From contig CAYONZ010000011.1 in NCBI GenBank assembly GCA_964405465.1, positions 57,800-76,443 of the forward strand: DNA of 18,644 bases, written 5' to 3'. The stretch comes from an uncultured Bdellovibrionales bacterium. GTDB taxonomy: Bacteria; Bdellovibrionota; Bdellovibrionia; Bdellovibrionales; JAMPXM01. Below are positions 1-16,817 of this stretch, piece by piece (the first letter of the stretch is position 1; each line of letters opens with the position of its first letter). The notes beneath the pieces are model-generated. The model saw only the letters and a list, made by a program, of their open reading frames with translations. It made no database searches and was not told the origin of the DNA. Both the position numbers and the translations under genes were made by a program.

Positions 1-978
1 GGAAACCTCGTTCCTGGATTTTCAAATTTTTTGCAAGCACTGTCGCTCGGGTCGACCTCTTTGCCTCTCGCGATTGGACTCATTTTGATGATGTATCCTC
101 CGTTGGCAAGAGTGAAATATGAAGAGCTACCTCAGGTATTTTTGAATAAGCGGATTTTGCTTTTGTCTCTTGTGCAGAACTGGTTACTTGGACCTGTTCT
201 TATGTTTGCATTGGCTGTGATCTTTCTTCGGGATCGCCCAGAATACATGAGTGGGCTTATTTTGATAGGCTTAGCTCGATGTATAGCTATGGTGATTGTT
301 TGGAATGATTTGGCAGGTGGTAGCCGTGAGTACTGTGCCGGATTGGTGGCCATGAATTCAGTTTTTCAAATCTTGTCATTTCCATTTCTGGCATTTTTAT
401 TTTTAACTTTGATCCCGCGATGGATGGGATTACCTGGGACGAACGTGTTCATTGGTATCGGAGATGTGGCTCAGGCTGTGCTGCTCTATCTTGGTCTTCC
501 GTTCGGCGCTGGATATTTCACGAGAAGGCTTCTCATAAAAAATCGCGGACCAAAATGGTATGAAACTAAATTTCTGCCCAAAATCTCTCCATTGACTCTT
601 GTATTTTTGCTTTTCACAATTCTGGTGATGTTTTCTCTAAAAGCAAATCAGATTTTGAGTCTACCCCTTGATGTCTTCAGAATCATGATTCCACTATTGC
701 TCTACTTCTTGATCATGTTTACGCTTTCTTTTTTTATGAGTTATCGGGTAGGGGCGGGTTATCAAGAGTCGGCCACTCTCTCGTTTACAGCAGCATCAAA
801 CAATTTTGAATTAGCCATTGCGGTCGCTGTGGCGACTTTTGGAATTAATCATGGAGCCGCATTTGCGGCAGTCATCGGACCTTTGGTTGAAGTTCCGGTC
901 TTGATTGGTCTGGTGAATGCCTCGCTTTGGATTCAGAGGCGATTTTTTAACTCCTCGCAGGTGGCAGTGAATGTCTAA
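1..978 (+). CDS. acr3: ACR3-family arsenite efflux permease, 5'-partial (reading frame is open to position 1; the 'M' at 31 is a TTG)
   Basis: Polytopic membrane protein whose N-terminal stretch ('[24 protein letters not shown]', '[17 protein letters not shown]') matches the ACR3 family as I recall it (Bacillus ArsB/ACR3). Frame 1 is open from base 1, so the N-terminus lies upstream of the window. ArsC follows immediately, overlapping by 8 nt. Confidence 0.75.
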
Positions 979-1396
979 GGTCGTGAAGATTTTATTTTTA
1001 TGTGTGGCGAACTCGGCGCGAAGCCAATTGGCGGAAGGTTTGGCAAAAGAAATATTTGCCGAGATGGCGCAAATCGAAAGTGCGGGGTCGCAACCTTCGG
1101 GAAAAATTCAACCTTGGGCCATAGAGGTCTTGCGTGATCAGGGAATTGATATTTCCAAAAACTATTCAAAATCGATCGATGACCTGCCTCGCGATTTTTT
1201 AATGAGCTTGGACTATGTGATTACTCTTTGTGCCGAAGAGGTATGTCCAGTGCTCTCCTCACCCGCGAAGCGACTTCACTGGCCGATTCGCGATCCGGCC
1301 ATGGTGAATGAGTCGCAAAAAGCACAGGCTTTCACCGAAGCTCGAGACGAAATTCGCAAACGAATTGAAGATTTTCAAACGACGCTATTAAAGTAA
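971..1396 (+). CDS. arsC: Arsenate reductase, LMW-PTP / thioredoxin-coupled type
   Basis: 141 aa. The CX5R P-loop 'CVANSARS' sits at the N-terminus, and the downstream Cys pair lies in 'TLCAEEVCP', arranged like B. subtilis ArsC (Cys10/Cys82/Cys89). The gene is translationally coupled to the ACR3 gene. Confidence 0.85.
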
Positions 1397-2543: not shown

Positions 2544-4613
2544 TTATTTAGGAGATGGATTCATTCGGTCGCGAATCGTGTTGGCTAGAAGCACATCGAC
2601 CAATGTTCCACCACCAGTCCCAGATCCTGAGGCGACAATATCAGGCACCAACTTCACTCCAGACTTCGCGAGCGATTCCGCGACCTGAACAATCGCATAG
2701 TTGTTGGATTCCATCGAAGCAATCTTCAGCTTAATCACTGAGGCCTCAGCTTCACCAATCGCTTTGGTCTTAGCGGCTTCAGCTTCACCCACAGATCGCA
2801 AAACAGTGGCGTCAGCCTCTGCATTGATCTTTTTAGATTGAGCCTGACCTTCGGCAGATTTGACTGTCGCTTTGGCACTGAACTCAGCGATGGCGACTTG
2901 TCTTTCGGCATCCACCACTTTTGCTTGAGTTGCGGCCAGAGCTGTTGCTTGTTCCAACTCTTGTTTCACGACTTGAGCTTCTCTTTGGGTATTGTAGGTG
3001 ACCCGCTCTTGCTCGGCAATTTTGCGATCAGTTAGAGTTTTCATCAGCTCATCTGGAGGAACAATATCGCCAATCAGTGTGTCGACGGCTCCGACATTGT
3101 ACTCTTTCAATGCTGTTGAAATTGCAAGCCGAGCCTGCTCTTGCCTTTGAGACCTGTTCTTCAAGAAATCTATAATGTCTGATCCTTGAGCCGCATTTCG
3201 AAAATAGTTGCCAATGGTCGGTTCAAGAACTTGAGTGACCAAGGCCGAGAGGCCGCCGAATCTCGCGATCACTTTGGGAGCGTCATTGCGCGGAATATGA
3301 ATGATCTGCGAAACATCTAAATTAAATTTAAAACCATCGGCTGAGCGCACGGTGATGGTCGAAAGCTTTTCATCAAGTTTGTGCGCCTCTGATTTTCCAG
3401 TGGCCCAATTGAGAACCACATTGGCTGTAGGAACACAACTGACTTTGTGGGTATGCGGATTGAGTGGGTATCGACCCGGATCAAGTGGGTCTACCCAAAC
3501 ACCTTTCTCACCACGGCTGACGAGATTGCCATGGCGAAACGATTCGCCTGTGACATCTCGACCTTCTTTGCCAACGAATGCGATGACCACACCGACATTT
3601 GCAATTGGAACTTCCGTCATTTCAACAATTTCAATTGTTGCAAATCGGGGGTTGATAAAATATCGACCAGACAAAAGAACTTGCTCTTGCAATCCCTTGT
3701 AGCCTCCACCATCACAAAATTCCTGAGGATTTTGAAACATATTGTGACCCTGCACGAGTGGACCTGCAATTTCGCCAGCAGGAAGTGCGGCACCTTCTCT
3801 GGTGGTTACAATACCGACCTTGTTGTCGGGAATATCGACTACTTCAGAAGTTTGAACTTCAAAAAGAAGCGGATTGATTCGGTAGGTACCCGGAGCAATG
3901 ATCGACATCTGTGGTCCACGTTCTCCACCGTTGTTAAAGAATGCACTTGCATCTTGAAAAGAGTTGCAGTTGACTTGCCTAGCAATGATTCGACCATTGG
4001 TGATAGGTTGGCCGTCGCGCGCCTCCACAACACCAATTTTACCTTGGGGAATCGACACCACACTGGCCAATTCCACTGTAAACAAAAGAGGATTAATTCG
4101 GTAAGTTCCGGGAGCAATCACATTCATTTGTGGTCCGCGCTCTCCACCGTTTTGCAAGAAGGCACGTGCATCTTGAAAGTTATCGCATTCGACGTGACGA
4201 GCGATAATTCGCCCACTCGCAAGCGACTGTCCATCACAAGCTTCAACAATTCCCACTTGATCGGGAGGAACAACAAAAAATTTCACCTTTTCGACCGTGT
4301 ACTGCCATGGCCAAAGTGCAAAATGAATTCCAGGAGGAAGTGTGTCGGCTTGGTAACCAGCCTCACCGTTGAGGGCGATGATACGGCCATCCGGAAGAGT
4401 CTTTTGCGAGCCAAAGAGGACGAATTTTTTCGTGACAATACCGAGGCTATCATCAGGGATAATGATGACGCCAAAGAGCCAGAGTAGCCAGCGAAACCCA
4501 CTCGCCAAGAGTACAACCACAAGCAATATTCCCGCGATCCAGAGCAAATAACCGTTTTCCATTTTTTCCTTTCTTGAAAAAATATATTTTGTTTGGAGAG
4601 ATCCTAGTTTCAT
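2544..4613 (-). CDS. SPFH/band-7 flotillin-family membrane protein (YqiK-like)
   Basis: 689 aa. It has an N-terminal transmembrane segment 'LLWIAGILLVVVLLASGF' and an SPFH-like central region. The C-terminus is a long Ala/Glu/Gln-rich coiled-coil ('EAQVVKQELEQATALAATQAKVVDAERQVAIAEF...') typical of flotillins. Three tandem repeats of about 72 aa precede the SPFH part. Confidence 0.7.
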   Translation of the reverse strand: MKLGSLQTKYIFSRKEKMENGYLLWIAGILLVVVLLASGFRWLLWLFGVIIIPDDSLGIVTKKFVLFGSQKTLPDGRIIALNGEAGYQADTLPPGIHFALWPWQYTVEKVKFFVVPPDQVGIVEACDGQSLASGRIIARHVECDNFQDARAFLQNGGERGPQMNVIAPGTYRINPLLFTVELASVVSIPQGKIGVVEARDGQPITNGRIIARQVNCNSFQDASAFFNNGGERGPQMSIIAPGTYRINPLLFEVQTSEVVDIPDNKVGIVTTREGAALPAGEIAGPLVQGHNMFQNPQEFCDGGGYKGLQEQVLLSGRYFINPRFATIEIVEMTEVPIANVGVVIAFVGKEGRDVTGESFRHGNLVSRGEKGVWVDPLDPGRYPLNPHTHKVSCVPTANVVLNWATGKSEAHKLDEKLSTITVRSADGFKFNLDVSQIIHIPRNDAPKVIARFGGLSALVTQVLEPTIGNYFRNAAQGSDIIDFLKNRSQRQEQARLAISTALKEYNVGAVDTLIGDIVPPDELMKTLTDRKIAEQERVTYNTQREAQVVKQELEQATALAATQAKVVDAERQVAIAEFSAKATVKSAEGQAQSKKINAEADATVLRSVGEAEAAKTKAIGEAEASVIKLKIASMESNNYAIVQVAESLAKSGVKLVPDIVASGSGTGGGTLVDVLLANTIRDRMNPSPK
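3840..4270 (-). repeat. Intragenic tandem repeat with a period of about 216 bp, encoding the repeated 'GRIIARxVxCxxFQDAxAFxxNGGERGPQMxxIAPGTYRINPLLF' module of the flotillin
   Basis: DNA-level similarity between 3871-3935 and 4088-4152 (ggattGattcggtaGgtAcccggagcaatgAtcgacatCtgtggtcc versus ggattAattcggtaAgtTccgggagcaatcAcattcatTtgtggtcc). Protein-level repeats are about 80% identical, and a third degenerate copy follows. Confidence 0.7.
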
Positions 4614-5028: not shown

Positions 5029-5331
5029 TTAAAGCTCGATCCGATCTTTGATAATTCCATCTCGATAAGACGAGGCAATTTGATCTTCATGAACTAAGTC
5101 TACCTTGTAAGGTAACCGTGATTCCTCGATGTCTTCTGCGATTTTCGAAAGATATCCGGAAGGGAAGGGAGTGTTGGGGCTTGAATAGAGAAGATCAACA
5201 TCAGAAAATTTCTGCTGGGTTCCTCTTGCGCGAGATCCAAAAATCCAAACGCGACAGCCCCAGGATTTTAAAGGTTCGATTACATTTTGAGACAAAATAG
5301 AATATTCCTCGGAAGTCATACCTGAGATCAT
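5029..5331 (-). CDS. Minimal nucleotidyltransferase (MNT, pol-beta fold), MntA-like antitoxin partner of the HEPN protein
   Basis: 100 aa. The GS-x10-DxD motif appears as 'GSRARGTQQKFSDVDL'. The start overlaps the stop of the upstream HEPN gene by 4 nt (ATGA). A paralog lies at 7833..8138. Confidence 0.8.
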   Translation of the reverse strand: MISGMTSEEYSILSQNVIEPLKSWGCRVWIFGSRARGTQQKFSDVDLLYSSPNTPFPSGYLSKIAEDIEESRLPYKVDLVHEDQIASSYRDGIIKDRIEL

Positions 5332-5717
5332 TTGTTTTTGAGGTTGGCTAAAAGTTGTTGTGCTTCTGGAAAAAATGCGGTCGCTATTTTTATGACTTCA
5401 ACAGCAATGTCTTCGTCATAGGCGTGAGAGGTCTTATTTCTTCCCTCAATAAAATCAAACCATAAATTTGGATCGGAAATCAATTGATTCTGTGCCATCT
5501 CACGAACGACAGGTTTTGCGGCGGTTGATTTTGATCCAAGAACTTTGGCTGAGACTTTCCATGCGATTTCAATCGAGTACTCAAAACGTTGAATTGCAGC
5601 ATCTCGAACGAACTTGTAAAAAGCCGAACTTTGAGAGTGTTGTTCCCTATTTAACTCATTCAGTGCCTCCTGAAGAGACAGCAAAGCTTTTTCAAACTCA
5701 ACAATACTAACACTCAT
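5328..5717 (-). CDS. HEPN-domain protein (nucleotidyltransferase substrate-binding / HepT-like putative RNase toxin)
   Basis: 129 aa, helical. The C-terminal 'RNKTSHAYDED' fits the HEPN Rx4HxY motif. It is immediately upstream of the MNT gene and translationally coupled to it. Confidence 0.75.
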   Translation of the reverse strand: MSVSIVEFEKALLSLQEALNELNREQHSQSSAFYKFVRDAAIQRFEYSIEIAWKVSAKVLGSKSTAAKPVVREMAQNQLISDPNLWFDFIEGRNKTSHAYDEDIAVEVIKIATAFFPEAQQLLANLKNK

Positions 5718-5875
5718 TGATCACCTTCTTTGATACGAAGAACTTTTCGACAGGGGCCTCTCTATTCGCAAGATTACTGATGAAACTGTTCAAGCCGCAA
5801 TAATTCACGGTAAACAGCAAACGCGATTTTGTCAAAGGCCATGACAGGCTAGCGGCAGCGACAGGCGCTCACAAA

Positions 5876-6451
5876 TTATTTTTCGTGATGGGTTCCAACA
5901 CGCAAAACCATTTGAATATCTGCAATCGATTGGCCGTTGATTCGAAACAGATCTTCGGTCGTACCGATTTGTTTGAACCCCAGAGATTCATAGAGAGACA
6001 CGGCGGGTGTATTGTGAGCGAAGACATAGAGTTCGATCCAATCAATGCCGGCTTGGGCCCTCGCCCAAGTGATGGCCGTGTCGGCTAACTTTCTGCCCCA
6101 GCCTTGACCGCGTGCCTCACGCTCAAGGCCCATTCCAAAAACAGCGCGATGGAGTGAAGCCTTAAGGCTACCAGATTTTAGGTCTGCGTGGCCCACAATG
6201 CGATCCTCTTTTTCAACGATCCAAACGGCTTCCCACCCAACTTGATCAAGTGGCTTCGACCACTTGACTTTGAGTTTTTCAACGAACTCGTTTTTGTTCC
6301 ACTCCGCGTGATCGCTTGTTGGGTGAAAGATAATATCGCCATTGCCAGACTCACCAAAGTGTCTTTGCAGGTGTTCAAAAAACCGAGCTTCATCTCCCGG
6401 CTGTGTACGTCGAAGTTTCATTCTCGTCTCACTTCTGTTGTTATCGATCAA
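5876..6451 (-). CDS. GNAT-family N-acetyltransferase
   Basis: The acetyl-CoA-binding motif 'QGWGRKLADTAI' (Q/R-x-x-G-x-G/A) and the C-terminal 'YESLGFKQ' are typical of GNAT enzymes. The more likely start is the second Met (MKLRRTQPGDE) at 6421. It is on the same strand as the HEPN/MNT pair 1, 158 bp upstream of it. Confidence 0.7.
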   Translation of the reverse strand: MIDNNRSETRMKLRRTQPGDEARFFEHLQRHFGESGNGDIIFHPTSDHAEWNKNEFVEKLKVKWSKPLDQVGWEAVWIVEKEDRIVGHADLKSGSLKASLHRAVFGMGLEREARGQGWGRKLADTAITWARAQAGIDWIELYVFAHNTPAVSLYESLGFKQIGTTEDLFRINGQSIADIQMVLRVGTHHEK

Positions 6452-6647
6452 TTTAACAACAAGTCTGTCATCGGATCAACCTTAAGCTTCCGCCGAAAGA
6501 CTCTAGGCCGTCCTCCACAAATCACTTTACGAAGCGTCATTGTAATCCTCGTTCAATAAACAATATTTGATTATTGAAATAGAAAAAGATCTAAGATCTT
6601 GACCTTCAAACTTCACGCTATACTCTATTAACTCAGTGGAGGTGTGA

Positions 6648-7829
6648 ATGAAATTTTTGATACTTGTTCTTTCGACATTGTGCCTGCCAATGAGTGCGCT
6701 TTCTCAAGTCAATCCCGCGGCGGAGGCCAGCAATCAGTTCGCCTTTGACATGTACAAGGTGAACGCAAAGAACTCAGACAACTTATTTTTCTCTCCACTG
6801 AGTCTTGAAGCGGCGCTGGCGATGACAGCGGCCGGTGCACAAAACGAAACTTTAAATCAAATGACCAAGACCTTGCATTTGCCTCCGAATTACCACCCAG
6901 AGTTTCGAACTTTGCTCGGGCAATTGAAGGGCGGTAGACACTTTCAATTGTTCATTGCCAATCGAATCTGGGGAAGTCTTGGGACTGAATACTATCCCTC
7001 ATTTCTTAATTTACTTCAGGAAAATTACGGTGCCGGCTTATCGGGGCTTGATTTCAAAACGCAACCTGAACCGTCTCGTTTAAAAATCAATGAGTGGGTT
7101 CAGCAGCAAACGAAAGATAAGATCAAAGACCTCTTGCCCCAAAAATCTATCACCGCGGAAACGGATCTTGTTTTGACCAATGCAATCTATTTTAAGGGCA
7201 AATGGGCAGAGCCGTTCAAAAAAGATCTCACGAAAGAAGACAGTTTTTTCGTAGCAGCAACACAAAGAAAGTCGATTCCGTTTATGCATCTCACCTCGCA
7301 TTTTCGCTATGCTGAAAATGCCGACATGCAATTTCTTGAAATGAATTACCTGGGGAATGAACTCGCGATGGACATTCTGCTTCCCAAAGATGGTGTCGAG
7401 TTGTCTTCGATTGAGAAAAAAATAAGTACTTCAGTCCTCGAAGAACTGATTGGCAAAAGTTCATTTGAAGAGGTTCAAGTGTCGATACCGAAATTTAAAA
7501 CTGAATCATCAATGAGTTTGAAAGAGACTTTAACGGCAATGGGCATGCCTTTGGCTTTTGACGAGGAAAAAGCTAACTTTCATGGAATGCGAAAAATTCT
7601 TCCAGGTAAAAATCTCTATATTTCTAAAGTCATGCACAAGGCCTTTGTTGATGTTGATGAAGAGGGAACTGAGGCGGCTGCCGCAACAGCGGTTGTGATG
7701 GGGATTGGGACTGGTCGGCCGTCACGACTTCAGCCAAAAATCTTTAAAGCAAATCGACCTTTTATATTTTTAATTCGCCACTTGAGCTCTGGAGCCATTC
7801 TTTTTATGGGCCGCTATACCCAGCCTTAA
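6648..7829 (+). CDS. Secreted serpin (serine protease inhibitor family)
   Basis: Strong SD GGAGGTG. Signal peptide 'MKFLILVLSTLCLPMSALSQ'. The serpin hinge 'EEGTEAAAATAVVMG' and the C-terminal signature 'FKANRPFIFLIRH' are both present. At 393 aa the length is typical of serpins. Confidence 0.85.
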   Translation: MKFLILVLSTLCLPMSALSQVNPAAEASNQFAFDMYKVNAKNSDNLFFSPLSLEAALAMTAAGAQNETLNQMTKTLHLPPNYHPEFRTLLGQLKGGRHFQLFIANRIWGSLGTEYYPSFLNLLQENYGAGLSGLDFKTQPEPSRLKINEWVQQQTKDKIKDLLPQKSITAETDLVLTNAIYFKGKWAEPFKKDLTKEDSFFVAATQRKSIPFMHLTSHFRYAENADMQFLEMNYLGNELAMDILLPKDGVELSSIEKKISTSVLEELIGKSSFEEVQVSIPKFKTESSMSLKETLTAMGMPLAFDEEKANFHGMRKILPGKNLYISKVMHKAFVDVDEEGTEAAAATAVVMGIGTGRPSRLQPKIFKANRPFIFLIRHLSSGAILFMGRYTQP

Positions 7830-7832
7830 ACT

Positions 7833-8138
7833 CTAGATCTCTACCATTGAGGCTTCGACGTTTTGGCGATAGCTCTTCGCTAGGTTTTTGTTGTTTACGA
7901 GATCGATTTTGTATGGAAACTGAGACTCTTCGAAAAAAATGAGAAGACTCGAGATAAACGTGGAGTCGATCGGGTGGTGTTCATTTTCAATAATCAACAA
8001 ATCAATATCAGAAAATCTGTGGTGCTTGGTGTGGACTCTCGAACCAAAAACAAAAATCTTCGCCTTCCGTGCTTTCAAAGGTTGTATAAGGTGTTGGTCC
8101 AAAAAAGAATATTCTGAATCGGTTAAGCCAAATTTCAC
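7833..8138 (-). CDS. Minimal nucleotidyltransferase (MNT), paralog 2
   Basis: 101 aa with the motif 'GSRVHTKHHRFSDIDL'. It is about 45% identical to the MNT at 5029..5331 over its full length. It overlaps the upstream HEPN gene by 4 nt. Confidence 0.8.
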   Translation of the reverse strand: MKFGLTDSEYSFLDQHLIQPLKARKAKIFVFGSRVHTKHHRFSDIDLLIIENEHHPIDSTFISSLLIFFEESQFPYKIDLVNNKNLAKSYRQNVEASMVEI

Positions 8139-8587
8139 GTCAAGATATCCTCAATTTTTTGACAAAGATCCTCGAAGTAGGGGATTGATTTTTGTGTGAT
8201 AGCGTAGACCTCTTTGGCAACGTCTTCGTCATAAGTGTGAGAAGTTTTATTTCTAGCGGTGAGCAGCTCAAACCAAGTGTCAGTCTCATCGATGAGATTG
8301 TTTCTAGCCATGTCCCGGATTGCCGTGTTCGGAGATTTGAGTTCAAGACCGAGAGCTTTAACTGCAGTTTTCCACGAGAGTTCCACGCAAAACTCGAACC
8401 TTTGAATGCATGAGTCTCGCAGAGCTTTTTGCAGCTCGACTGCTTGTGGTTGACCATTCCGAGCTTCGTCTAAAAGCCTTGAGGATGTCTTTAAAGACGC
8501 AATTACATTTTTTAACTCTTGGGTGGATAGAGAGGTTGATTTCAACTGAAGGCTCCCGGAGAAAAATTGGATCAGGTTCTGGACCAT
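8135..8587 (-). CDS. HEPN-domain protein, paralog 2 (HepT-like)
   Basis: 150 aa with 'RNKTSHTYDED' (Rx4HxY). It is collinear with HEPN1 ('CIQRFEFCVELSWKTAVKALG' versus 'AIQRFEYSIEIAWKVSAKVLG') and carries an N-terminal extension of about 20 aa. Confidence 0.75.
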   Translation of the reverse strand: MVQNLIQFFSGSLQLKSTSLSTQELKNVIASLKTSSRLLDEARNGQPQAVELQKALRDSCIQRFEFCVELSWKTAVKALGLELKSPNTAIRDMARNNLIDETDTWFELLTARNKTSHTYDEDVAKEVYAITQKSIPYFEDLCQKIEDILT

Positions 8588-8782: not shown

Positions 8783-9823
8783 TTAGGGGGCCTGATATTT
8801 TCGGCCCTTTTTTTCGCCGCTCATTTTTAATTTTTTTTCCTTCACTAGATTTTCGATGTCCCGTTCTAAAGTTCGACGAGGGGTCTCTGGTAAAAGTGCG
8901 ACAATGTTTTTCATTTGAAAACCAGATTGGCTCTCGGCAAACTTCATAATTTTTTTTGCGCGAGTCTCGGGGCTAAGTTTTTTTGGTTTCTCAAAAAGCT
9001 GATGCGCCTCTTGAACCACCTCTTTGGTCGCTGTTGCAAAACACTCGATCATAAATTCCAGCATCGGTTGGGTACTCTGAAGGGCTTTGCATTGTTTGAT
9101 AGCAGCATAGTAACGCCCACGATTTCTCATTACGATCGCTTCAATAGGAATGTAACGAGCGATGTTTTCACCGCCCAGCAAGAGCAAGATCTGCTGAAAA
9201 AGTCTGACGGTTCGTCCATTCCCCTCGGCGAAAGGCTGGATGGCGACAGCCAAATAGTGAAATGCAAAGGCTTTGGCAAACGGATTGGACTCTTCGTTGT
9301 CTTTAAGCCATGCCCATAGATCTTCCATTAAAAATGGAACTTGTTTCGGATCGGGACACACTTCGACCTCGGAGGCAGTGGCTTGGTCAACAATTGAAGC
9401 TGGAATCGTACGAAAGCGACCATGCTGGTTTTTTTGAACCAATTCGTCAGTAACCAATTTTTGTAAATCACAAAAGTCGCGAATGCTGGGCATTTTTTTT
9501 TCCGCAGCCAACTTTTCTGCAAAATTGAGTGCATTTTGATAATTTAAAATTTCTTTGGCCGCTCGGTTTTTCGGCTTCATCTGAGACGTTTCCAATAATG
9601 TCGCGACTGTCTCTTCGTCGAGTTTATTTCCCTCGATTTGATTCGAATAAGTGATGGCTTTGATTTGTGCTTGTTGCTGAAGTTGAGATTCGAGAGGAGT
9701 TGCTAGCATTTCATCCAGCAAAGGTTTGCTCTCGGCAATTTGCATGAGGCTTTGTACAAAGCCATCAGTGAGTTTTATTTTAAACGGAATTTTACATTGT
9801 TTTAAATAGGAATAACGACTCAT
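8783..9823 (-). CDS. Fic/Doc-family protein, class II (N-terminal inhibitory helix) with a C-terminal winged-helix-like domain. The catalytic His of the Fic motif is replaced by Gln. The start is reassigned to Met24 of the 369-aa ORF
   Basis: The motif region 'FHYLAVAIQPFAEGNGRTVR' reads against the HPFx[DE]GNGRxxR consensus, with Q at the His position. The inhibitory [ST]xxxE[GN] motif 'SNQIEG' lies upstream. The first 23 codons of the annotated ORF (9824-9892) translate a cluster of CCGCCA/TGGCGG palindromes and are probably not coding. Met18 (9841) remains an alternative start. Confidence 0.7.
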   Translation of the reverse strand: MSRYSYLKQCKIPFKIKLTDGFVQSLMQIAESKPLLDEMLATPLESQLQQQAQIKAITYSNQIEGNKLDEETVATLLETSQMKPKNRAAKEILNYQNALNFAEKLAAEKKMPSIRDFCDLQKLVTDELVQKNQHGRFRTIPASIVDQATASEVEVCPDPKQVPFLMEDLWAWLKDNEESNPFAKAFAFHYLAVAIQPFAEGNGRTVRLFQQILLLLGGENIARYIPIEAIVMRNRGRYYAAIKQCKALQSTQPMLEFMIECFATATKEVVQEAHQLFEKPKKLSPETRAKKIMKFAESQSGFQMKNIVALLPETPRRTLERDIENLVKEKKLKMSGEKKGRKYQAP

Positions 9824-9829
9824 TCGCCC

Positions 9830-9912
9830 ATTATCCGCCATATTTCCGCCACAGGCAAGATGGCGGAAATATAACCGCCAAATATCCGCCATTGATGATG
9901 TGGCGGATATTT
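9830..9912. promoter_or_regulatory. Operator-like array of two perfect 12-N9-12 inverted repeats, ATATTTCCGCCA-N9-TGGCGGAAATAT (9840-9872) and AAATATCCGCCA-N9-TGGCGGATATTT (9880-9912), plus two extra half-sites (9830-9840 and 9869-9880)
   Basis: Read directly from the sequence. There are six copies of the CCGCCA/TGGCGG core with AT-rich flanks within 83 bp. The array lies immediately upstream of, and overlapping, the likely Fic start, and downstream of the XRE-HTH gene. Confidence 0.7.
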
Positions 9913-10021: not shown

Positions 10022-10375
10022 TTAGGCAACTTTGAACTTCAAATTTGGTTTAATGATGTGCAAAAGCTTAAGCAGTTTATCAATAGTGAAGCGACCGTGG
10101 TGGTAATGCACAATTTCGCTGACCCTTGACTCGCTGACCCCAAGAATTTCTGCCAACTCCCGCTGAGTCACATTCTTTTCTTGGCAATAGCGAATAAAAT
10201 GGGCGCACAACTCATGCTTGGCTCGATCCACAGGACTTGCGTCGCGGGGTAAAATCTTGGTTGGCTTAGATTTACCCAGCTTCTTCTCGATCTCAACCCA
10301 TTCGCTTTCTGTGGGCCATCCTGGAGGTGGAGTTTTGCTGACTCTGATAAGCGTTGATTTTTTTGCTTTCTTCAT
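10022..10375 (-). CDS. XRE-family HTH protein, putative antitoxin (HigA-like position) with a basic N-terminal extension
   Basis: A perfect SD AGGAGGT lies 5 nt upstream. The HTH is 'TQRELAEILGVSESRVSEI'. The start overlaps the stop of the upstream RelE/ParE-like gene (ATGA). The N-terminus is Lys-rich ('MKKAKKSTLIRVSK'). Confidence 0.65.
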   Translation of the reverse strand: MKKAKKSTLIRVSKTPPPGWPTESEWVEIEKKLGKSKPTKILPRDASPVDRAKHELCAHFIRYCQEKNVTQRELAEILGVSESRVSEIVHYHHGRFTIDKLLKLLHIIKPNLKFKVA

Positions 10376-10665
10376 TTCGACCTCCTGTAAGCATTTCTCA
10401 CGCCAATATAACTTTCATCGGGCGGTATCACCCAAATCAGACGATAGGGCTTGCCGCTCCAAACTAGGTCTGTTTCGTAAAACTGATAACCGTCCTCACG
10501 AATCATTTGGGGGAGATAATTTTCATAGTTCAATACACCCAACAGCTCCAAAATCAGTTTGTCGTTGATTGATCGGCTATGTTTTTCTTCATAGTGCGTA
10601 TCAATCCAGACCTCGCTGAACCATGTATCATTGATGAAAAGACTCGCTTCAACGATACGGTACAT
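10372..10665 (-). CDS. RelE/ParE-superfamily toxin-like protein (HigB-like gene order: toxin first, HTH second)
   Basis: The C-terminal 'YRLIWVIPPDESYIGVRNAYRR' resembles the RelE/ParE 'RIIYRVDDE..VYILRIGHRKDVY' signature. About 97 aa from the ATG at 10665; the ORF track's earlier start at 10683 is a TTG. It is coupled to the HTH gene. Confidence 0.55.
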   Translation of the reverse strand: MYRIVEASLFINDTWFSEVWIDTHYEEKHSRSINDKLILELLGVLNYENYLPQMIREDGYQFYETDLVWSGKPYRLIWVIPPDESYIGVRNAYRRSK

Positions 10666-10954
10666 CAGATACCACCCTACCAAAACTTCCCAAATTTGGC
10701 AAGCTATTTGTTCCTATCATAAACCGTCCTTTGAAACAAAATGATGATCTTGGACTCTGTGGTGTTGGGATCATGTAGATCCAGGCCGGCATCCCTTAGA
10801 TTGAAAATCTAGTTTTCCCTATGTAAATCTGCCCGGTCTTTAGATCGCTCCAGTCGCCCATGATTATGAATCGGGCAGGTTCAATACACATGCCGAGCCT
10901 AGCTGTGACATTGCAAAGGTGGCCGTCCAAAACCCATCAGAAATGTCCGCAACA

Positions 10955-11015
10955 CTTCCGCTTGTCGTTTTAATCAATGTGAATATCTTGTGGAGCTGGT
11001 ACTTGGGCTGACTCT
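10955..11015 (+). repeat. 61-bp direct repeat, copy 1 (60/61 identical to 13685..13745). It contains a sigma70-like TTGTCG-N16-TATCTT (10962-10989) facing the 11058 gene
   Basis: Exact comparison in the sequence: cttccgcttgtcgttttaatcaatgtgaatatcttgtggAgctggtacttgggctgactct versus the same with G at 13724. Confidence 0.85.
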
Positions 11016-11057: not shown

Positions 11058-12128
11058 ATGCGAAATCTAATTCTAGCTTCTGTTTTATTTTTTTTCCCAA
11101 CCCTTGGGATGGGCAGGGATCTCCCTGCGAAAGACTTCTATCGGCTGGAGGAGTGTCGTCGAGTGATTGACCTAGTTGGAGAGAAATATTGGCCGGGTGT
11201 TGTAGGGTTTCAAGGTCCTTGGGTTTATCCTGTTGAAGGCGGACAGTTTGTTTTTAATTATTCTAAAGACCTTTCGGGCTATGAAACTGTTCGTAATGAT
11301 CAGTACAAATCAGAGAAATTAAAATTAAACCGGGTTCAGTGGCTTTCGAAATCACAATTGACATTGGATGGAGTTGATCAGAGTTCGGAACCTGTTTTCG
11401 TATTCAATTCTGTTTCGACAGACCCAAAAGCCATCGATTATAAAAATCCAATTTTGTACGCGTCTTCTTTCGAGGTCGTTGGAAAAACAATACCTTTTAC
11501 TGACACGGAAGATTGGATGTCTTTGATTTTGCACGAAGCTTTTCATCAATTTCAATTTTCAAATTCTCAAGTGTTCGAACAATACAAAAAGTTGAAAGAT
11601 GATGGTGTATATTTAGATAGTTCTCAGCTAGCTCTGATTTACGAAAAGCAAAGTTGGTTCAGGCAGATGCTTTTAGATGAGAACGTGATCCTGCTTAAGG
11701 CTCGAGCTGAAGCTAAGCTCTTGAACAAAAGAAAGATTCTCTCAGAATTTTTTAAGATGAGAGAAATGCGTCGAGAGCGTTACAAAAAAGAAACAGGGAA
11801 GAGTCTGGCGCAAGCAGAGGCTATGTGGGAGATGCTCGAAGGTGGCGCTCGATATTTTGAATACGGAACTTTTCGCATATTGCAGACAGCATCCATCAAT
11901 CAAAAATTGGCCGAGGTTGATTCGAACTATGGTTCAAATAAGAGATATCGTAAAACATTTTCGACAGAAATGATGGAAGATCTAGGAAAAGACAAGAAGC
12001 GGACAAGGTATTTTTATACGACAGGATTCAACCTATATATGCTCCTAGAGCAAGCGGATCCGCAGTTCTCAAAATCACTATTCGACAAAGCTCCGTATTA
12101 CGCAGAATCAATATTGAAAGCTCTGTAA
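11058..12128 (+). CDS. Secreted HExxH-motif protein, putative zinc metallopeptidase
   Basis: Signal peptide 'MRNLILASVLFFFPTLGMG'. The motif 'LILHEAFHQFQF' (HEAFH at 11532-11546) is present, with Glu residues 11-15 aa downstream. There is no other recognisable domain and no obvious SD. Confidence 0.45.
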   Translation: MRNLILASVLFFFPTLGMGRDLPAKDFYRLEECRRVIDLVGEKYWPGVVGFQGPWVYPVEGGQFVFNYSKDLSGYETVRNDQYKSEKLKLNRVQWLSKSQLTLDGVDQSSEPVFVFNSVSTDPKAIDYKNPILYASSFEVVGKTIPFTDTEDWMSLILHEAFHQFQFSNSQVFEQYKKLKDDGVYLDSSQLALIYEKQSWFRQMLLDENVILLKARAEAKLLNKRKILSEFFKMREMRRERYKKETGKSLAQAEAMWEMLEGGARYFEYGTFRILQTASINQKLAEVDSNYGSNKRYRKTFSTEMMEDLGKDKKRTRYFYTTGFNLYMLLEQADPQFSKSLFDKAPYYAESILKAL

Positions 12129-12840: not shown

Positions 12841-12933
12841 AAGTGCGACATATGCTCTCTTGTTGACCAAACATGATCGTCATCTTACTTTGATTTCAAC
12901 TTGCCTCCAGCGGTAGCTAATAAACCGCTCTTA

Positions 12934-13680
12934 ATGCAAACAAATACAATTGAAACGAAGATGCTCGACTTGCAGGTCGTGCAGACGGTTTTGGATTTCT
13001 GGGATCCTTATAGTGCTTCGATTTACAGAGCATCTACTTTGAATCAGATCGACGAGTACGACAGTTACTCCTTTCCCATTTTAGATTTGCTTAGAACTGG
13101 ATCTTCTCATGCCGATCTCTTTCGATTTCTAAATCAAACGCAGCTCACGCGTGGCGCTTTGAGTGCCGACGAAAATGAATCAATAAATAGATTTTTCGCC
13201 TGGGCCTTTCTGCAAACTTGGCAAAGAAATCAATCTAGAGAAACGAATATTCGCCGGCTTCACATTGACTCTGTTCAATTGCCTGAAGGGGAATATCGAT
13301 TTATGCCACGCCTCGAGCTTATCCAGCAGTACCTTCAGCAATGGGACCCGCTCGAAGCTTCAAAGCATTGGTTATATGGCGCGGATACTTTGCATCGTTA
13401 TGATCAACCGAGCATTGTACTTGATGAAGCCGTTCAGCGTGGAAATCTTGAAGAAGTATGTCTTGCTCTAGAGGTTGCCTGTTTGGCGGAAGGTGATGGA
13501 GTTGCCTTTGCGCTTGAAAACTATTCGTTAGAGAAAAGAACGTTACAAGAGCATTATCATTCGCATTTAGTTGAAAGATCCAAACGGCATCAAGATCGCG
13601 CGGAATTTTTAATTAAGCTCTTGGGCGATCCGAATCGAGTTGTTCGACGCAGGACTCAGTCGCGGAAAAGAGAGGGATGA
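12934..13680 (+). CDS. Hypothetical protein with two internally similar ~100-aa halves (W-D-P motif in each); function unknown
   Basis: The ATG at 12934 (MQTNTIETK) is preferred over the TTG at 12901. Half 1 contains 'LDFWDPYSASIY...SFPILDLL' and half 2 contains 'QQWDPLEASKHW...PSIVLDEAV'. The gene ends 4 nt before copy 2 of the 61-bp repeat. Confidence 0.4.
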   Translation: MQTNTIETKMLDLQVVQTVLDFWDPYSASIYRASTLNQIDEYDSYSFPILDLLRTGSSHADLFRFLNQTQLTRGALSADENESINRFFAWAFLQTWQRNQSRETNIRRLHIDSVQLPEGEYRFMPRLELIQQYLQQWDPLEASKHWLYGADTLHRYDQPSIVLDEAVQRGNLEEVCLALEVACLAEGDGVAFALENYSLEKRTLQEHYHSHLVERSKRHQDRAEFLIKLLGDPNRVVRRRTQSRKREG

Positions 13681-13684
13681 GGAT

Positions 13685-13745
13685 CTTCCGCTTGTCGTTT
13701 TAATCAATGTGAATATCTTGTGGGGCTGGTACTTGGGCTGACTCT
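13685..13745 (+). repeat. 61-bp direct repeat, copy 2
   Basis: See copy 1. It lies in the convergent gap between 12934..13680 (+) and 13835..14899 (-). Confidence 0.85.
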
Positions 13746-15121: not shown

Positions 15122-16209
15122 TTATCGTTTGAGCTGATACACGTTCCCTTCGGCTTTTTGGTCTTCGGGGACAGTGACACCGAGATCCTCAGTCGCTCCC
15201 TCAATATCCTTCCCACAGAGCCTTAAATAGCCTTGTGTGGTCTTAAGGGACGAGTGACCAACGATAGCCATAACCTTTGAAAGAGCGACCCCATTATTTA
15301 GCATCTGCGTAATAAATGTGGCCCTTAGATCATGAAACTTGATGGAACTGATGCCGATTCCCTTACAGAAGTCTCTTGTTATTTGACCGAGGTGTCCTTG
15401 GTCCCATTCCCATAAGCGGGGTAGTACAAATTCGGCTCCTCCGGCCTTTAGCTTGAGTTCCTGTAAGAACTTTCGACATTCCTTAGAGATGGGATAAACA
15501 CGGTTTTTGGCGGTCTTTGTTGGACCCTCGCCGTTGTACCGAGTCCATGCTTTTGAGATATTGATGAATCCCGTTACAAAATCCACATCTATCCAGCGTA
15601 GGGCATGAAGTTCGCCCGAACGCATCCCCGTTAGCAGTGCAAGTGTCCAATGGGGATAAAACTTGTGGTTGATAGATTTGGCTTCACGAAGAAAAATCTC
15701 AATCTCATTTTTGTTAAGCACAGACTGGTTGGCATCCGCGATTTTAACTTTGATACCGACGGCAGGATTTCTGGTTAGAATTCCTTCTTCGATAGCGAGA
15801 TTAAAAATGCGTTTGATGATTTTAATTATTCCCTTGCGAGTCTGGCTAGAAACGCCAGAGACGTGTTCAAAAATTAAATTATGAACTTCACCAGGGGTAA
15901 TCTCATCAATGAAGCGGTCTTTCCAAACTGGCGTTACCCACTTCTCAATATTGAACTTGTAGTTCATATAAGTCGAATTGCGGTATTCGTTCTTATACCT
16001 CTTGAGAAAATGTTCGACCCAGTTGGCCCAAGGCACTTTGTCCTTGTGACCTTCGAGTGAGGTTTTTAGTTCAAACTCCACTCTTTTGGCTTCGCGTTCG
16101 GACGCAATTCCCATCCGTCTTAAGCCAACCTGTTTGCCAGAACTATCTCTAACTTTTACGAATACTTCATACGATAGTTTGCCATCCTTTACCTTTTTTG
16201 AAATTGCCA
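15122..16209 (-). CDS. int: Tyrosine recombinase / phage-type integrase
   Basis: The C-terminal catalytic region 'HDLRATFITQMLNNGVALSKVMAIVGHSSLKTTQGYLRL' carries the R..HxxR..Y signature. The N-terminus 'AISKKVKDGKLSYEVFVKV' looks like an arm-binding domain. The likely start is GTG at 16209, with SD AAAGGAA, immediately after the xis stop. The longer ORF to 16303 would overlap xis by 90 nt. Confidence 0.85.
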
Positions 16210-16212
16210 CAG

Positions 16213-16428
16213 CTATTCCTTTCTGTGGAACAGCATGGAAATTTCGGAAATTCGGAATCTGAGACTTCGGCCAAAGCGATAACAAGGAATGAGTCCTCTG
16301 CACACTTTGATCCGCAACGCATTTTCCGAGATCCCCAAAAATTGGGCGGCAACTCTCGTAGATACATACTCACGCACTATTTTGTTTTCAAAGAACTTCG
16401 AGCTTTCATCCAGCTCGTTAACTTTCAT
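16213..16428 (-). CDS. xis: Excisionase/AlpA-like small DNA-binding protein
   Basis: 71 aa. 'VSTRVAAQFLGISENALRIKVCRGLIPCYRFGRSLRFRISEI' is typical of the excisionase/HTH_17 family. It lies directly upstream of int on the same strand. Confidence 0.7.
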   Translation of the reverse strand: MKVNELDESSKFFENKIVREYVSTRVAAQFLGISENALRIKVCRGLIPCYRFGRSLRFRISEISMLFHRKE

Positions 16429-16489: not shown

Positions 16490-16508
16490 TGTTATTGTTT
16501 TGTTCGTA

Positions 16509-16817
16509 ATGAAGAAAATAGCGGCATCTAAAAAGGAACTTGATGAATATGAGATAGTCTTTCGTGCTTTGGCCCATGTCTCACGGCGGCATATTATCGT
16601 ATGCCTAAGCCAAAAGGACGGTCCTATGCTTGGAGGCGAAATCGCTGACCAACTTTCCTGTTCCTGGCCGACAACAACAGGGCATTTGCAAACATTGGAA
16701 AAAGCCGGGCTTGTTACTGTCAAAAAGCAGGGCCGTGAACAACTCTACAACTTAAATTTTGATCGTCTGAATGTACTTCAGAATTGGATCAATTTTTTAA
16801 ATAAAGGACCCAAATGA
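16509..16817 (+). CDS. ArsR/SmtB-family HTH transcriptional regulator (no CVC metal site)
   Basis: 'FRALAHVSRRHIIVCLSQKDGPMLGGEIADQLSCSWPTTTGHLQTLEKAGLVTVKKQGREQLYNL' matches the ArsR-family wHTH pattern. The ATG at 16509 is preferred over the TTG at 16500. Its stop overlaps the next gene's start (ATGA). Confidence 0.7.
   Translation: MKKIAASKKELDEYEIVFRALAHVSRRHIIVCLSQKDGPMLGGEIADQLSCSWPTTTGHLQTLEKAGLVTVKKQGREQLYNLNFDRLNVLQNWINFLNKGPK

What the first reader, a model, noticed from the sequence alone, without database searches (positions are those of the whole stretch)
5029..8587. Two paralogous HEPN-then-MNT (HepT/MntA-like) modules bracket a GNAT acetyltransferase and a secreted serpin
Seen in sequence: two gene pairs, 5328..5717 with 5029..5331 and 8135..8587 with 7833..8138. 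Each pair is a HEPN protein with an Rx4HxY motif (RNKTSHAYD / RNKTSHTYD) followed by a minimal nucleotidyltransferase with GS-x10-DxD, and each pair is joined by an ATGA overlap. The two MNTs are about 45% identical end to end, and the two HEPNs are collinear, so this is an ancient duplication rather than a recent copy. Established knowledge: HEPN/MNT pairs are type-VII toxin-antitoxin systems in which the HEPN RNase is the toxin and is neutralised by MNT-mediated nucleotidylylation, and they are common in defence islands. The order here (HEPN first, MNT second) is the reverse of the HI0073/HI0074 arrangement. Inference: a GNAT, a fold also used by tRNA-acetylating toxins, sits 158 bp upstream of pair 1 on the same strand. 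A signal-peptide serpin lies divergently between the pairs. I do not know this four-component arrangement as a described system, and it may act as one unit.
Basis: partly seen in the sequence, partly recalled or inferred. Interest (0 to 1): 0.7.

Follow-up and report, generated by a model that had tools for sequence, protein, structure and literature searches.

The report
Two ordinary HEPN/MNT toxin-antitoxin pairs
The region holds two separate, standard two-gene HEPN/MNT toxin-antitoxin modules of the well-known HI0073/HI0074 type, and the acetyltransferase and secreted serpin between them are unrelated neighbours, not parts of a new four-gene system.

Summary
The genes are real and correctly identified. 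HEPN1 (5328-5717) and HEPN2 (8135-8587) are HI0074-family HEPN proteins (PF08780, TIGR01987) with RNKTSHxY. MNT1 (5029-5331) and MNT2 (7833-8138) are minimal nucleotidyltransferases with GSx10DxD. A GNAT and a full-length serpin lie between the pairs.

Small corrections:
- Pair 2 overlaps by GTGA, not ATGA.
- The MNTs are 39% identical, not about 45%. The HEPNs are 36% identical.
- HEPN2 probably starts at TTG 8545.

The pairs meet the published definition of Class I type VII HepT/MntA modules. The HEPN1 model best matches the Legionella HEPN toxin and HI0074.

The four-component idea fails its own refutation test:
- In 80 genomes with related pairs (1.17 Mb), no locus has a relative of this GNAT or of the serpin.
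- The closest relatives of pair 1, pair 2, the GNAT and the serpin all sit in unrelated contexts.
- Among 107 nearest-neighbour ORFs, no Pfam family recurs more than three times.

HEPN-then-MNT is the normal order in this clade (73 of 80 loci). The two pairs belong to different subclades, so they are not a local duplication.

Verdict: ordinary mobile TA modules in a TA-rich, integrase-associated accessory region, probably of a Bdellovibrionota genome. Low interest.

The parts
5328..5717 (-). HEPN1: 129-aa HI0074-family HEPN protein, the predicted RNase toxin of module 1
   Evidence: PF08780 E=1.3e-28. TIGR01987 67.9 bits against a cutoff of 55.8. AlphaFold model pLDDT 95.6. Best structural matches are the L. 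pneumophila HEPN toxin 8XEH/8YUF (TM up to 0.83) and HI0074 1JOG (TM 0.85).
5418..5441 (-). HEPN1 RX4HXY motif (RNKTSHAY, residues 93-100). Y100 is the predicted AMP acceptor.
   Evidence: S97, H98 and Y100 are invariant, and R93 and N94 nearly invariant, in 24 homologues. The motif aligns to R98/H103/Y105 of the Legionella HEPN.
5029..5331 (-). MNT1: 100-aa minimal nucleotidyltransferase, the predicted adenylyltransferase antitoxin of module 1. Its start overlaps the HEPN1 stop (ATGA).
   Evidence: PF01909 E=2.7e-10. Best PDB match is HI0073. The family profile hits HI0073 at 3e-21, MNT_Lpg at 1e-7 and MntA 5YEP at 5e-6. The overlap is shown.
5194..5238 (-). MNT1 GSX10DXD motif (residues 32-46)
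   Evidence: G32, S33, D44 and D46 are invariant in 26 homologues.
8135..8587 (-). HEPN2: HI0074-family HEPN protein, the predicted toxin of module 2. The longest ORF is 150 aa from ATG 8587; the likely true start is TTG 8545 (136 aa).
   Evidence: PF08780 E=8.4e-25. TIGR01987 67.4 bits. The orthologue alignment bears on the start codon. The closest relatives, at about 60% identity, are L008, L012 and L021.
8231..8254 (-). HEPN2 RX4HXY motif (RNKTSHTY, residues 112-119 of the 150-aa ORF)
   Evidence: One search gives the residue positions. The coordinates are derived from them.
7833..8138 (-). MNT2: 101-aa minimal nucleotidyltransferase, the predicted antitoxin of module 2. It has a GTG start that overlaps the HEPN2 stop (GTGA).
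   Evidence: PF01909 E=2e-11. GSX10DXD lies at 8001-8045. It clusters with the MNTs of L008, L010, L012, L013 and L021, as HEPN2 does with their HEPNs.
5876..6421 (-). GNAT N-acetyltransferase (181 aa from the ATG; the longest ORF reaches 6451). A neighbour, not part of the modules.
   Evidence: PF00583 E=1e-15. PDB relatives are generic small-molecule N-acetyltransferases, with no tRNA-acetylating toxin among them. There is no antitoxin-sized ORF upstream. Its homologues lie in housekeeping contexts.
6648..7829 (+). Serpin, 393 aa, with an N-terminal signal-like sequence and an inhibitory-type hinge (EEGTEAAAATA). A neighbour on the opposite strand, not part of the modules.
   Evidence: PF00079 E=3e-112 over the full length. 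PDB hits to serpins reach E=4e-72. The hinge is at residue 340. Relatives' loci lack HEPN and MNT.

Best explanation
The region carries two independent, autonomous two-gene toxin-antitoxin modules. They are Class I HEPN/MNT (type VII, HepT/MntA-like) modules of the HI0073/HI0074 subfamily.

**Gene organisation (shown).** In each module the upstream gene encodes a small all-helical HEPN protein. The downstream gene overlaps it by 4 nt, which suggests translational coupling. It encodes a short (about 100 aa) minimal nucleotidyltransferase.

**Mechanism (inferred from characterised relatives).**
- The HEPN dimer is an RNase that arrests growth.
- The cognate MNT uses ATP and its GSX10DXD site to attach one or more AMP groups to the tyrosine of RX4HXY. 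That tyrosine is Y100 in HEPN1 and Y119 in the 150-aa HEPN2 ORF. The modification blocks the RNase.
- Loss of MNT activity, or removal of the AMP, releases the toxin.

**Active-site residues.** The Gln/Glu pair that forms the Mg2+-dependent active site of the Legionella homologue (Q44/E47) is conserved here as Q43/E46 of HEPN1.

**Relationship between the pairs.** The two modules are diverged members of different subclades. Each probably arrived separately. They are probably insulated from each other.

**Setting.** They sit in an accessory, TA-rich stretch that also holds a Fic protein, an XRE-type pair and an integrase. The host is probably a Bdellovibrionota genome.

**Neighbours.** The GNAT, a generic small-molecule-type N-acetyltransferase, and the secreted inhibitory serpin are incidental neighbours with their own functions.

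**Open question.** Whether the biological role is island stabilisation or abortive-infection defence is not resolved.
For: **Family placement.**
- PF08780, PF01909 and TIGR01987 scores are above their cutoffs.
- The HEPN profile hits TTHA0048 at 3.5e-28, HI0074 at 2e-26 and the Legionella HEPN toxin at 1.7e-21.
- The MNT profile hits HI0073 at 3e-21, MNT_Lpg at 1e-7 and MntA at 5e-6.
- The HEPN1 model (pLDDT 95.6) matches 8XEH, 8YUF, 1JOG and 1WTY first, then the HepT toxins 6M6U and 7AE6.

**Motifs.** RX4HXY and GSX10DXD are present in both pairs and invariant or nearly so across homologues. Q43/E46 align to Q44/E47 of the Legionella HEPN (PMC11586414).

**Autonomy and mobility.**
- MNT lies immediately downstream of HEPN in 73 of 80 related loci, mostly with 4- or 8-nt overlaps.
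- Flanking genes are hypervariable: 132 Pfam families among 107 neighbours, none seen more than 3 times.
- The family occurs on 61 plasmids. One example is flanked by IS elements.
- The family is large: 2145 representatives of 50%-identity clusters at E<=1e-3.

**Separate lineages.** NJ trees of HEPN and of MNT agree in placing pair 2 with L008, L010, L012, L013 and L021, and pair 1 elsewhere.

**Neighbours are not conserved.**
Against: - No experiment supports this. Toxicity, AMPylation and RNA targets are inferred from relatives that are only 25-30% identical.
- Both proteins score below the NCBIfam cutoffs for the S. oneidensis-type HepT and MntA equivalogs. Mechanistic details may therefore differ, as they already do in Legionella. 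There the RX4H residues were dispensable for RNase activity and the MNT lacks helix alpha-4.
- Promoter and terminator scans were uninformative. Read-through from the GNAT into pair 1 is therefore not excluded.
- The same GNAT-HEPN1-MNT1 order recurs in a second, nearly identical metagenome strain (L002). That is too close a relative to count as independent conservation.
- Island boundaries could not be defined: there is no tRNA and no att-like repeat at the integrase end.
Confidence: 0.85

Rival explanations
1. One reading: the two HEPN/MNT pairs, the GNAT and the serpin form one four-component system, for example a composite defence or toxin system.
For: - All four components lie within 3.6 kb.
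- The GNAT is on the same strand, 158 bp upstream of pair 1.
- The arrangement recurs in two metagenome samples.
- The MNTs hit the PADLOC candidate family PDC-S09.
Against: - 0 of 80 related HEPN loci have a relative of this GNAT or serpin within 10 kb.
- The closest relatives of every one of the four components sit in unrelated contexts.
- GNAT frequency among neighbours is 2 of 107 ORFs, which is about background.
- The serpin is on the opposite strand, is predicted to be exported, and converges on MNT2.
- The GNAT has no toxin-type relatives and no antitoxin partner.
- The two metagenome contigs are 98-100% identical strains, not independent observations.
- Makarova et al. 2009 already cite a HEPN-MNT pair inserted into a GNAT cluster as an example of module mobility.
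Confidence: 0.03
2. The pairs are not toxin-antitoxin modules. They are a two-subunit nucleotidyltransferase (catalytic MNT plus a HEPN 'substrate-binding subunit') that modifies a small molecule or antibiotic, as in the original HI0073/HI0074 annotation.
For: - The NCBIfam and Pfam names still read 'nucleotidyltransferase substrate-binding'.
- Makarova et al. 2009 left this option open.
Against: - Three characterised systems show HEPN toxicity and MNT-mediated AMPylation of the motif tyrosine. These include the Legionella pair, which belongs to this same subfamily by sequence and fold.
- The acceptor tyrosine and the GSX10DXD motif are invariant here.
Confidence: 0.05
3. The two modules are functionally coupled. 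Either MNT1 and MNT2 cross-neutralise the non-cognate HEPN, or one pair is decaying and depends on the other, so the tandem presence is selected.
For: - Both pairs are intact, with all motifs.
- Two HI0074-type pairs within a few kb also occur in L057 and L071.
Against: - The pairs share only 36-39% identity.
- HEPN and MNT trees are concordant, which suggests pairwise co-evolution.
- Most related genomes carry a pair alone in the 20 kb sampled.
- Makarova et al. report that HEPN-MNT occurs strictly as unique pairs.
Confidence: 0.07

Closest known systems
Legionella pneumophila HEPN-MNT (lpg2920/lpg2921; PDB 8XEM, 8XDJ, 8XEH, 8XEO), a type VII TA
   Same: - It belongs to the same PF08780/HI0074-type HEPN subfamily by sequence (profile E=1.7e-21) and by fold (top Foldseek hits).
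- It has the RX4HXY motif with the acceptor Tyr.
- The Q/E Mg2+ site is conserved (Q44/E47 = Q43/E46).
[quoted passage not shown]
- Its genes overlap.
   Different: - HEPN identity is only about 26%.
- MNT similarity is detectable only with a profile (1e-7).
- The tetramer-forming loop and residue Q64 were not examined here.
- The gene order in Legionella was not verified. In one uncultured Legionella locus (L055) the MNT lies upstream.
Haemophilus influenzae HI0073/HI0074 (PDB 1NO5/1JOG) and Thermus TTHA0048 (1WTY)
   Same: - These are the founding members of the family.
- They give the best sequence matches: HI0073 at 3e-21, HI0074 at 2e-26 and TTHA0048 at 3.5e-28.
- HI0074 matches the HEPN1 model at TM 0.85.
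   Different: - These are structural-genomics proteins with no toxicity data.
- By gene numbering the H. influenzae MNT comes first. Here, and in 73 of 80 relatives, the HEPN comes first. The H. influenzae strand was not checked with these tools.
Shewanella oneidensis HepT/MntA (SO_3166/SO_3165) and Aphanizomenon flos-aquae HEPN/MNT
   Same: - Same Class I definition: RX4HXY plus GSX10DXD in neighbouring genes.
- Same predicted neutralisation by oligo-AMPylation of the motif tyrosine.
   Different: - A different HEPN Pfam family (PF01934).
- NCBIfam equivalog scores are far below their cutoffs: 22-35 bits against 60.
- MntA is 139 aa, with an alpha-4 helix that the 100-aa MNTs here lack.
- Fold match is weaker (TM about 0.65, 15% identity).
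GNAT toxin / RHH antitoxin modules (TacT/AtaT type)
   Same: Only the GNAT fold.
   Different: - There is no adjacent antitoxin ORF.
- No TacT or AtaT structure appears among PDB hits at E<=1e-3. The nearest hits are generic, spermidine or phosphinothricin acetyltransferases.
- Its homologues lie next to prfC or recA.

Membership tests
Class I HEPN/MNT (HepT/MntA-like) type VII toxin-antitoxin pair, as defined by Yao et al. 2020 (PMC7641770) | HEPN-clan protein carrying the RX4HXY motif | tested here: met
   RNKTSHAY in HEPN1 and RNKTSHTY in HEPN2. The motif is invariant or nearly invariant in 24 homologues.
Class I HEPN/MNT (HepT/MntA-like) type VII toxin-antitoxin pair, as defined by Yao et al. 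2020 (PMC7641770) | Neighbouring MNT (PF01909) carrying GSX10DXD | tested here: met
   Both MNTs carry the motif at residues 32-46. PF01909 scores are above the cutoff. G, S, D and D are invariant in 26 homologues.
Class I HEPN/MNT (HepT/MntA-like) type VII toxin-antitoxin pair, as defined by Yao et al. 2020 (PMC7641770) | Two adjacent co-directional genes forming a conserved mobile pair | tested here: met
   4-nt overlaps are present here. MNT is adjacent to HEPN in 77 of 80 related loci. Flanking genes are variable. The pair is present on plasmids.
Class I HEPN/MNT (HepT/MntA-like) type VII toxin-antitoxin pair, as defined by Yao et al. 2020 (PMC7641770) | HEPN is a growth-arresting RNase, and MNT neutralises it by AMPylating the motif tyrosine | not testable with these tools
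   This needs expression, rescue and mass-spectrometry experiments.
HI0073/HI0074 subfamily (TIGR01987 / PF08780 with a short MNT) | HEPN scores above the curated cutoffs of TIGR01987 and PF08780 | tested here: met
   TIGR01987: 67.9 and 67.4 bits against a cutoff of 55.8. PF08780: 99.9 and 87.6 bits against a cutoff of 31.8.
HI0073/HI0074 subfamily (TIGR01987 / PF08780 with a short MNT) | Fold of HI0074 / Legionella HEPN toxin | tested here: met
   The HEPN1 model has pLDDT 95.6. TM is 0.85 to 1JOG and 0.83 to 8YUF. HEPN2 was not modelled.
HI0073/HI0074 subfamily (TIGR01987 / PF08780 with a short MNT) | Gln/Glu metal site shown to be catalytic in the Legionella homologue (Q44/E47) | tested here: met
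   Q43 and E46 of HEPN1 align to Q44 and E47 and are invariant in 24 homologues. HEPN2 has the same IQRFE.
HI0073/HI0074 subfamily (TIGR01987 / PF08780 with a short MNT) | [quoted passage not shown] | tested here: met
   The MNTs are 100 and 101 aa. The profile aligns to residues 9-86 of the 139-aa MntA, and to HI0073 and MNT_Lpg nearly end to end.
NCBIfam equivalogs HepT_toxin (NF047751) and MntA_antitoxin (NF047752), S. oneidensis type | Score at or above the equivalog cutoff (60 bits) | tested here: not met
   MNT1 scores 34.8 bits and MNT2 23.2 bits. HEPN2 scores 22 bits. HEPN1 is not listed. They are a sister subfamily, not equivalogs.
GNAT-toxin TA module (TacT/AtaT type) | Adjacent small RHH/DUF1778-type antitoxin gene, and sequence relation to tRNA-acetylating toxins | tested here: not met
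   Only 29-30-aa ORFs lie upstream of the GNAT. No toxin-type GNAT appears among 24 PDB hits. Homologues lie in housekeeping contexts.
Multi-gene system 'HEPN/MNT x2 + GNAT + serpin' | Conserved co-occurrence of the components across genomes | tested here: not met
   There are no GNAT or serpin hits in 80 HEPN loci. None of the 14 serpin loci and none of the 3 GNAT loci has HEPN or MNT. The neighbour census shows no recurrent family.
Inhibitory serpin | Full-length serpin domain with an inhibitory-type hinge | tested here: met
   PF00079 covers positions 2-370 of 370. The hinge EEGTEAAAATA lies at residues 338-348 (by inspection). The signal peptide was judged by eye only.

The most novel reading that the evidence does not exclude
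In this lineage the GNAT is co-transcribed with HEPN1-MNT1 and modulates the module, for example by acetylating the toxin, the antitoxin or the same RNA pool. Alternatively, the two diverged pairs form a cross-regulating double module. Either would be a lineage-specific elaboration of a type VII TA that cannot be seen from conservation, because it exists only here.
Probability: 0.04. Interest if true: 0.45.

Novelty: new member of a known kind. Interest (0 to 1): 0.12.

Why it matters
It matters little beyond annotation. The result places two uncharacterised Bdellovibrionota-type gene pairs in the HI0073/HI0074 branch of type VII toxin-antitoxin systems. That branch has a single biochemically characterised member, from Legionella.

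It also shows that HEPN-first order and 4- or 8-nt overlaps are the rule in this branch. And it removes a tempting but unsupported 'four-component system' from the candidate list.

The two diverged pairs side by side could serve as a convenient natural test of cognate specificity between short MNTs and their HEPN partners.

Tried and rejected
- **Conserved GNAT or serpin association.** Tested from all four components and rejected.
- **GNAT as a TacT/AtaT-type toxin.** Rejected.
- **Operon structure from promoter and terminator scans.** Uninformative: 4 promoter-like sites against 9.6 expected, and 8 terminator-like sites against 7.0 expected.
- **Island boundaries.** No tRNA. No att-like repeat shared between the integrase end and the rest of the window. 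No composition shift. Boundaries are undefined.
- **Rfam scan of the window.** No RNA family found.
- **PADLOC and PHROGs on the remaining ORFs.** Nothing beyond the MNT and Fic hits.
- **Exact look-up of MNT2 on other contigs.** Not on record.
- **The 38-nt DNA repeat between the two HEPN genes** (5404-5441 and 8217-8254, 87% identical). This is just the conserved motif-coding stretch, not a sign of recent conversion.
- **Gene order in L. pneumophila and H. influenzae.** Could not be verified with the available collections.

Full report
**1. Observation**

The ORF map shows, on the minus strand:
- MNT1, 5029-5331
- HEPN1, 5328-5717
- a GNAT, 5876-6451 (or 5876-6421 from the ATG)
- MNT2, 7833-8138
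- HEPN2, 8135-8587

A 393-aa ORF lies on the plus strand at 6648-7829.

Pfam places the two larger small proteins in PF08780 (NTase_sub_bind, the HI0074-type HEPN) at E=1.3e-28 and 8.4e-25. It places the two 100-aa proteins in PF01909 and the middle genes in GNAT families. The plus-strand ORF is a full-length serpin at E=3e-112. NCBIfam puts both HEPNs above the TIGR01987 cutoff (67.9 and 67.4 bits against 55.8).

- RNKTSHAY and RNKTSHTY in the HEPNs
- GS-x10-DxD in both MNTs

The GNAT stop is 158 bp from the HEPN1 start. The serpin is divergent from the GNAT and convergent with MNT2.

Corrections:
- The pair 2 overlap is GTGA, not ATGA.
- The MNTs are 39% identical and the HEPNs 36%.
- Orthologue alignment suggests HEPN2 starts at TTG 8545.

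**2. What the pairs are**

Sequence evidence:
- Single-sequence searches of solved structures hit TTHA0048, the Legionella pneumophila HEPN toxin (8XDJ, 8YUF) and HI0074 for HEPN1. They hit HI0073 for MNT1.
- A profile from 24 HEPN homologues (A1) scores 3.5e-28 on TTHA0048, 2e-26 on HI0074 and 1.7e-21 on the Legionella HEPN. It scores only 5e-3 on S. oneidensis HepT.
- A profile from 26 MNT homologues (A3) scores 3e-21 on HI0073, 1e-7 on the Legionella MNT and 5e-6 on MntA.

Structural evidence:
- An AlphaFold model of HEPN1 (pLDDT 95.6, five helices) best matches the Legionella HEPN toxin, TTHA0048 and HI0074, with TM up to 0.85.

Conserved residues:
- In A1, R38, Q43, R44, E46, E50, K54, R72, W86, S97, H98 and Y100 are invariant.
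- In A3, G32, S33, R34, S43, D44 and D46 are invariant.
- By the alignment, Q43/E46 correspond to Q44/E47 of the Legionella protein. R93/H98/Y100 correspond to its R98/H103/Y105.

What the literature says:
- Jin et al. 2024 (PMC11586414) showed that the Legionella protein is a Mg2+-dependent RNase using Q44/E47.
- They showed that its short MNT, which lacks helix alpha-4, poly-AMPylates it.
- Yao et al. [quoted passage not shown] Both pairs here meet that definition.
- They do not reach the NCBIfam equivalog cutoffs for the S. oneidensis-type HepT and MntA. They therefore belong to the sister HI0073/HI0074 branch.

**3. Is the four-gene arrangement a unit?**

I tested conservation starting from each component.

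*(a) From the HEPN genes.*
- A scan of one genome per species returned 565 confirmed relatives. The best 80 loci were kept with up to 10 kb of flank on each side, 1.17 Mb in all.
- tblastn with all window proteins found HEPN in 80 of 80 and an adjacent MNT in most. It found no hit to the GNAT or the serpin in any locus.

*(b) From the closest pair-1 relatives in metagenomes (61-65% identity).*
- One lies after SpoVG.
- The other lies near a 152-aa GNAT on the opposite strand, with an intervening gene. That GNAT shares only a 16-residue match with the GNAT here.

*(c) From the GNAT.* Its few homologues (47-52% identity) lie next to prfC, or to recA and GFA. No HEPN or MNT is nearby.

*(d) From the serpin.* Fourteen metagenome loci with serpin relatives (up to 46% identity) contain no HEPN, MNT or GNAT relative.

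*(e) Neighbour census.*
- I scanned the two nearest ORFs on each side of the pair in 32 loci, 107 ORFs in all, against Pfam.
- This gave 132 families, none present more than three times. GNAT appeared twice and serpin never.
- At about 2% GNAT per neighbouring gene, finding one GNAT among the roughly six genes that flank two pairs has a chance of roughly one in ten. This figure is my estimate.

Other points:
- The serpin is on the opposite strand and looks exported.
- The GNAT resembles generic small-molecule acetyltransferases and has no antitoxin partner.
- Makarova et al. 2009 (PMC2701414) describe a HEPN-MNT pair inserted in a Deinococcus GNAT cluster as evidence of module mobility. They also note that HEPN-MNT occurs strictly as a unique pair.

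**4. Gene order and duplication**

Gene order:
- In the 80 loci the MNT lies immediately downstream of the HEPN in 67 by tblastn. Six more are found by motif search.
- The MNT lies upstream in four loci, and three are unresolved.
- The commonest junctions are 4- and 8-nt overlaps.
- A RefSeq-annotated Piscirickettsia plasmid shows the same order with an 8-nt overlap, between IS elements.

HEPN-first is thus normal for this branch.

Duplication:
- Neighbour-joining trees of HEPNs and of MNTs agree. Pair 2 clusters with L008, L010, L012, L013 and L021 (57-60% HEPN identity), while pair 1 lies elsewhere.
- Each pair is much closer to pairs in other genomes than to its neighbour. This argues for separate lineages, and probably separate acquisitions, not a local duplication.
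- Two pairs within a few kb also occur in L057 and L071.

**5. Setting**

- The closest relatives are nearly all Bdellovibrionota MAGs: Pseudobdellovibrionaceae, Bacteriovorax and Bdellovibrio sp. HCB-110.
- Identical contigs exist only in two metagenome runs.
- Downstream of pair 2 lie a Fic protein with a strong PADLOC SoFic hit, an XRE-type gene overlapping an unannotated 103-aa gene, three ORFs without family, and a tyrosine integrase with an HTH_17 excisionase-like gene.
- A 66%-identical integrase in another Bdellovibrionales MAG (L061) sits directly beside a degraded HEPN/MNT.
- The family occurs on 61 plasmids and in 2145 50%-identity clusters.

These data together fit mobile, autonomous modules accumulating in an accessory region. 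I could not define the boundaries of that region.

**6. Mechanism**

Shown here:
- family membership
- motifs
- gene overlap
- conserved pairing
- variable context

Inferred from characterised relatives:
- The HEPN dimer cleaves RNA.
- The MNT AMPylates Y100 (HEPN1) or Y119 (HEPN2) using ATP.
- The modified toxin is inactive.
- Loss of modification releases it.

Which catalytic residues are used is open, because the Legionella study and the Shewanella/Aphanizomenon studies differ. The choice is between Q/E-Mg2+ and R...H. The biological role, stabilisation or abortive infection, is also open.

**7. Verdict**

The proposed higher-order system is not supported. These are new, uncharacterised members of a known and very common kind. 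Interest is low.

Noticed in passing
window 10955-11015 and 13685-13745: A sharply bounded 61-nt direct repeat, 60 of 61 bases identical, with unrelated flanks. It brackets a 2.7-kb segment that holds two ORFs with no family hits (11058-12128 and 12901-13680). It has no predicted structure (z = -0.13), no Rfam hit, and is absent from the 106 fetched loci. It may be att-like or a duplicated regulatory element.
   Followed up: partly
window 10022-10375(-) and 10372-10683(-): An XRE/HTH_37 protein (HigA-like) is preceded by a 103-aa ORF that overlaps it by 4 nt. The 103-aa ORF has no Pfam, NCBIfam, PADLOC, PHROG or PDB hit. The same pair recurs 1.1 kb downstream of a HEPN/MNT pair in L013 (63% and 51% identity) and, more weakly, near one in L028. 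It is a candidate toxin-antitoxin pair with an undescribed toxin family.
   Followed up: partly
window 8783-9892(-): A Fic-domain protein (PF02661) with a strong hit to the PADLOC SoFic defence model (E=8e-39). It scores far below the NCBIfam SoFic equivalog cutoff (46.6 bits against 550). It lies 195 bp upstream of HEPN2 on the same strand.
   Followed up: no
window 15122-16428(-); L061 8557-10329: A tyrosine integrase with an overlapping HTH_17 excisionase-like gene. A Bdellovibrionales MAG (L061) has the same xis-int pair (48% and 66% identity) directly next to a degraded HEPN/MNT remnant. No tRNA or att repeat was found in either.
   Followed up: partly
window 2544-4613(-): A 689-aa SPFH/Band 7 protein. 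Its N-terminal half contains two near-identical ~60-residue repeats (…GRIIARHVECDNFQDARAFLQNGGERGPQMNVIAPGTYRINPLLF… and …GRIIARQVNCNSFQDASAFFNNGGERGPQMSIIAPGTYRINPLLF…), which Pfam does not cover.
   Followed up: no
window 31-1396(+) and 16500-16817(+): An ACR3-type arsenite carrier (matched as PF01758) and an LMW-phosphatase-type ArsC lie at the left end. An ArsR/MarR-like HTH gene lies 15 kb away, beside the integrase. The GNAT's best NCBIfam hit is the arsinothricin-resistance ArsN1 model, but far below its cutoff (44 bits against 170).
   Followed up: no
L057 9914-10592 and 15875-16532; L071 4603-6372; L084 10825-11585: Other genomes also carry two HI0074-type pairs close together, in a Flavobacteriales MAG and in Motiliproteus. 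In L084 the pair is followed by an ArsR(HTH_20)-AHSA1 pair, another TA-like module listed by Makarova et al. 2009.
   Followed up: no
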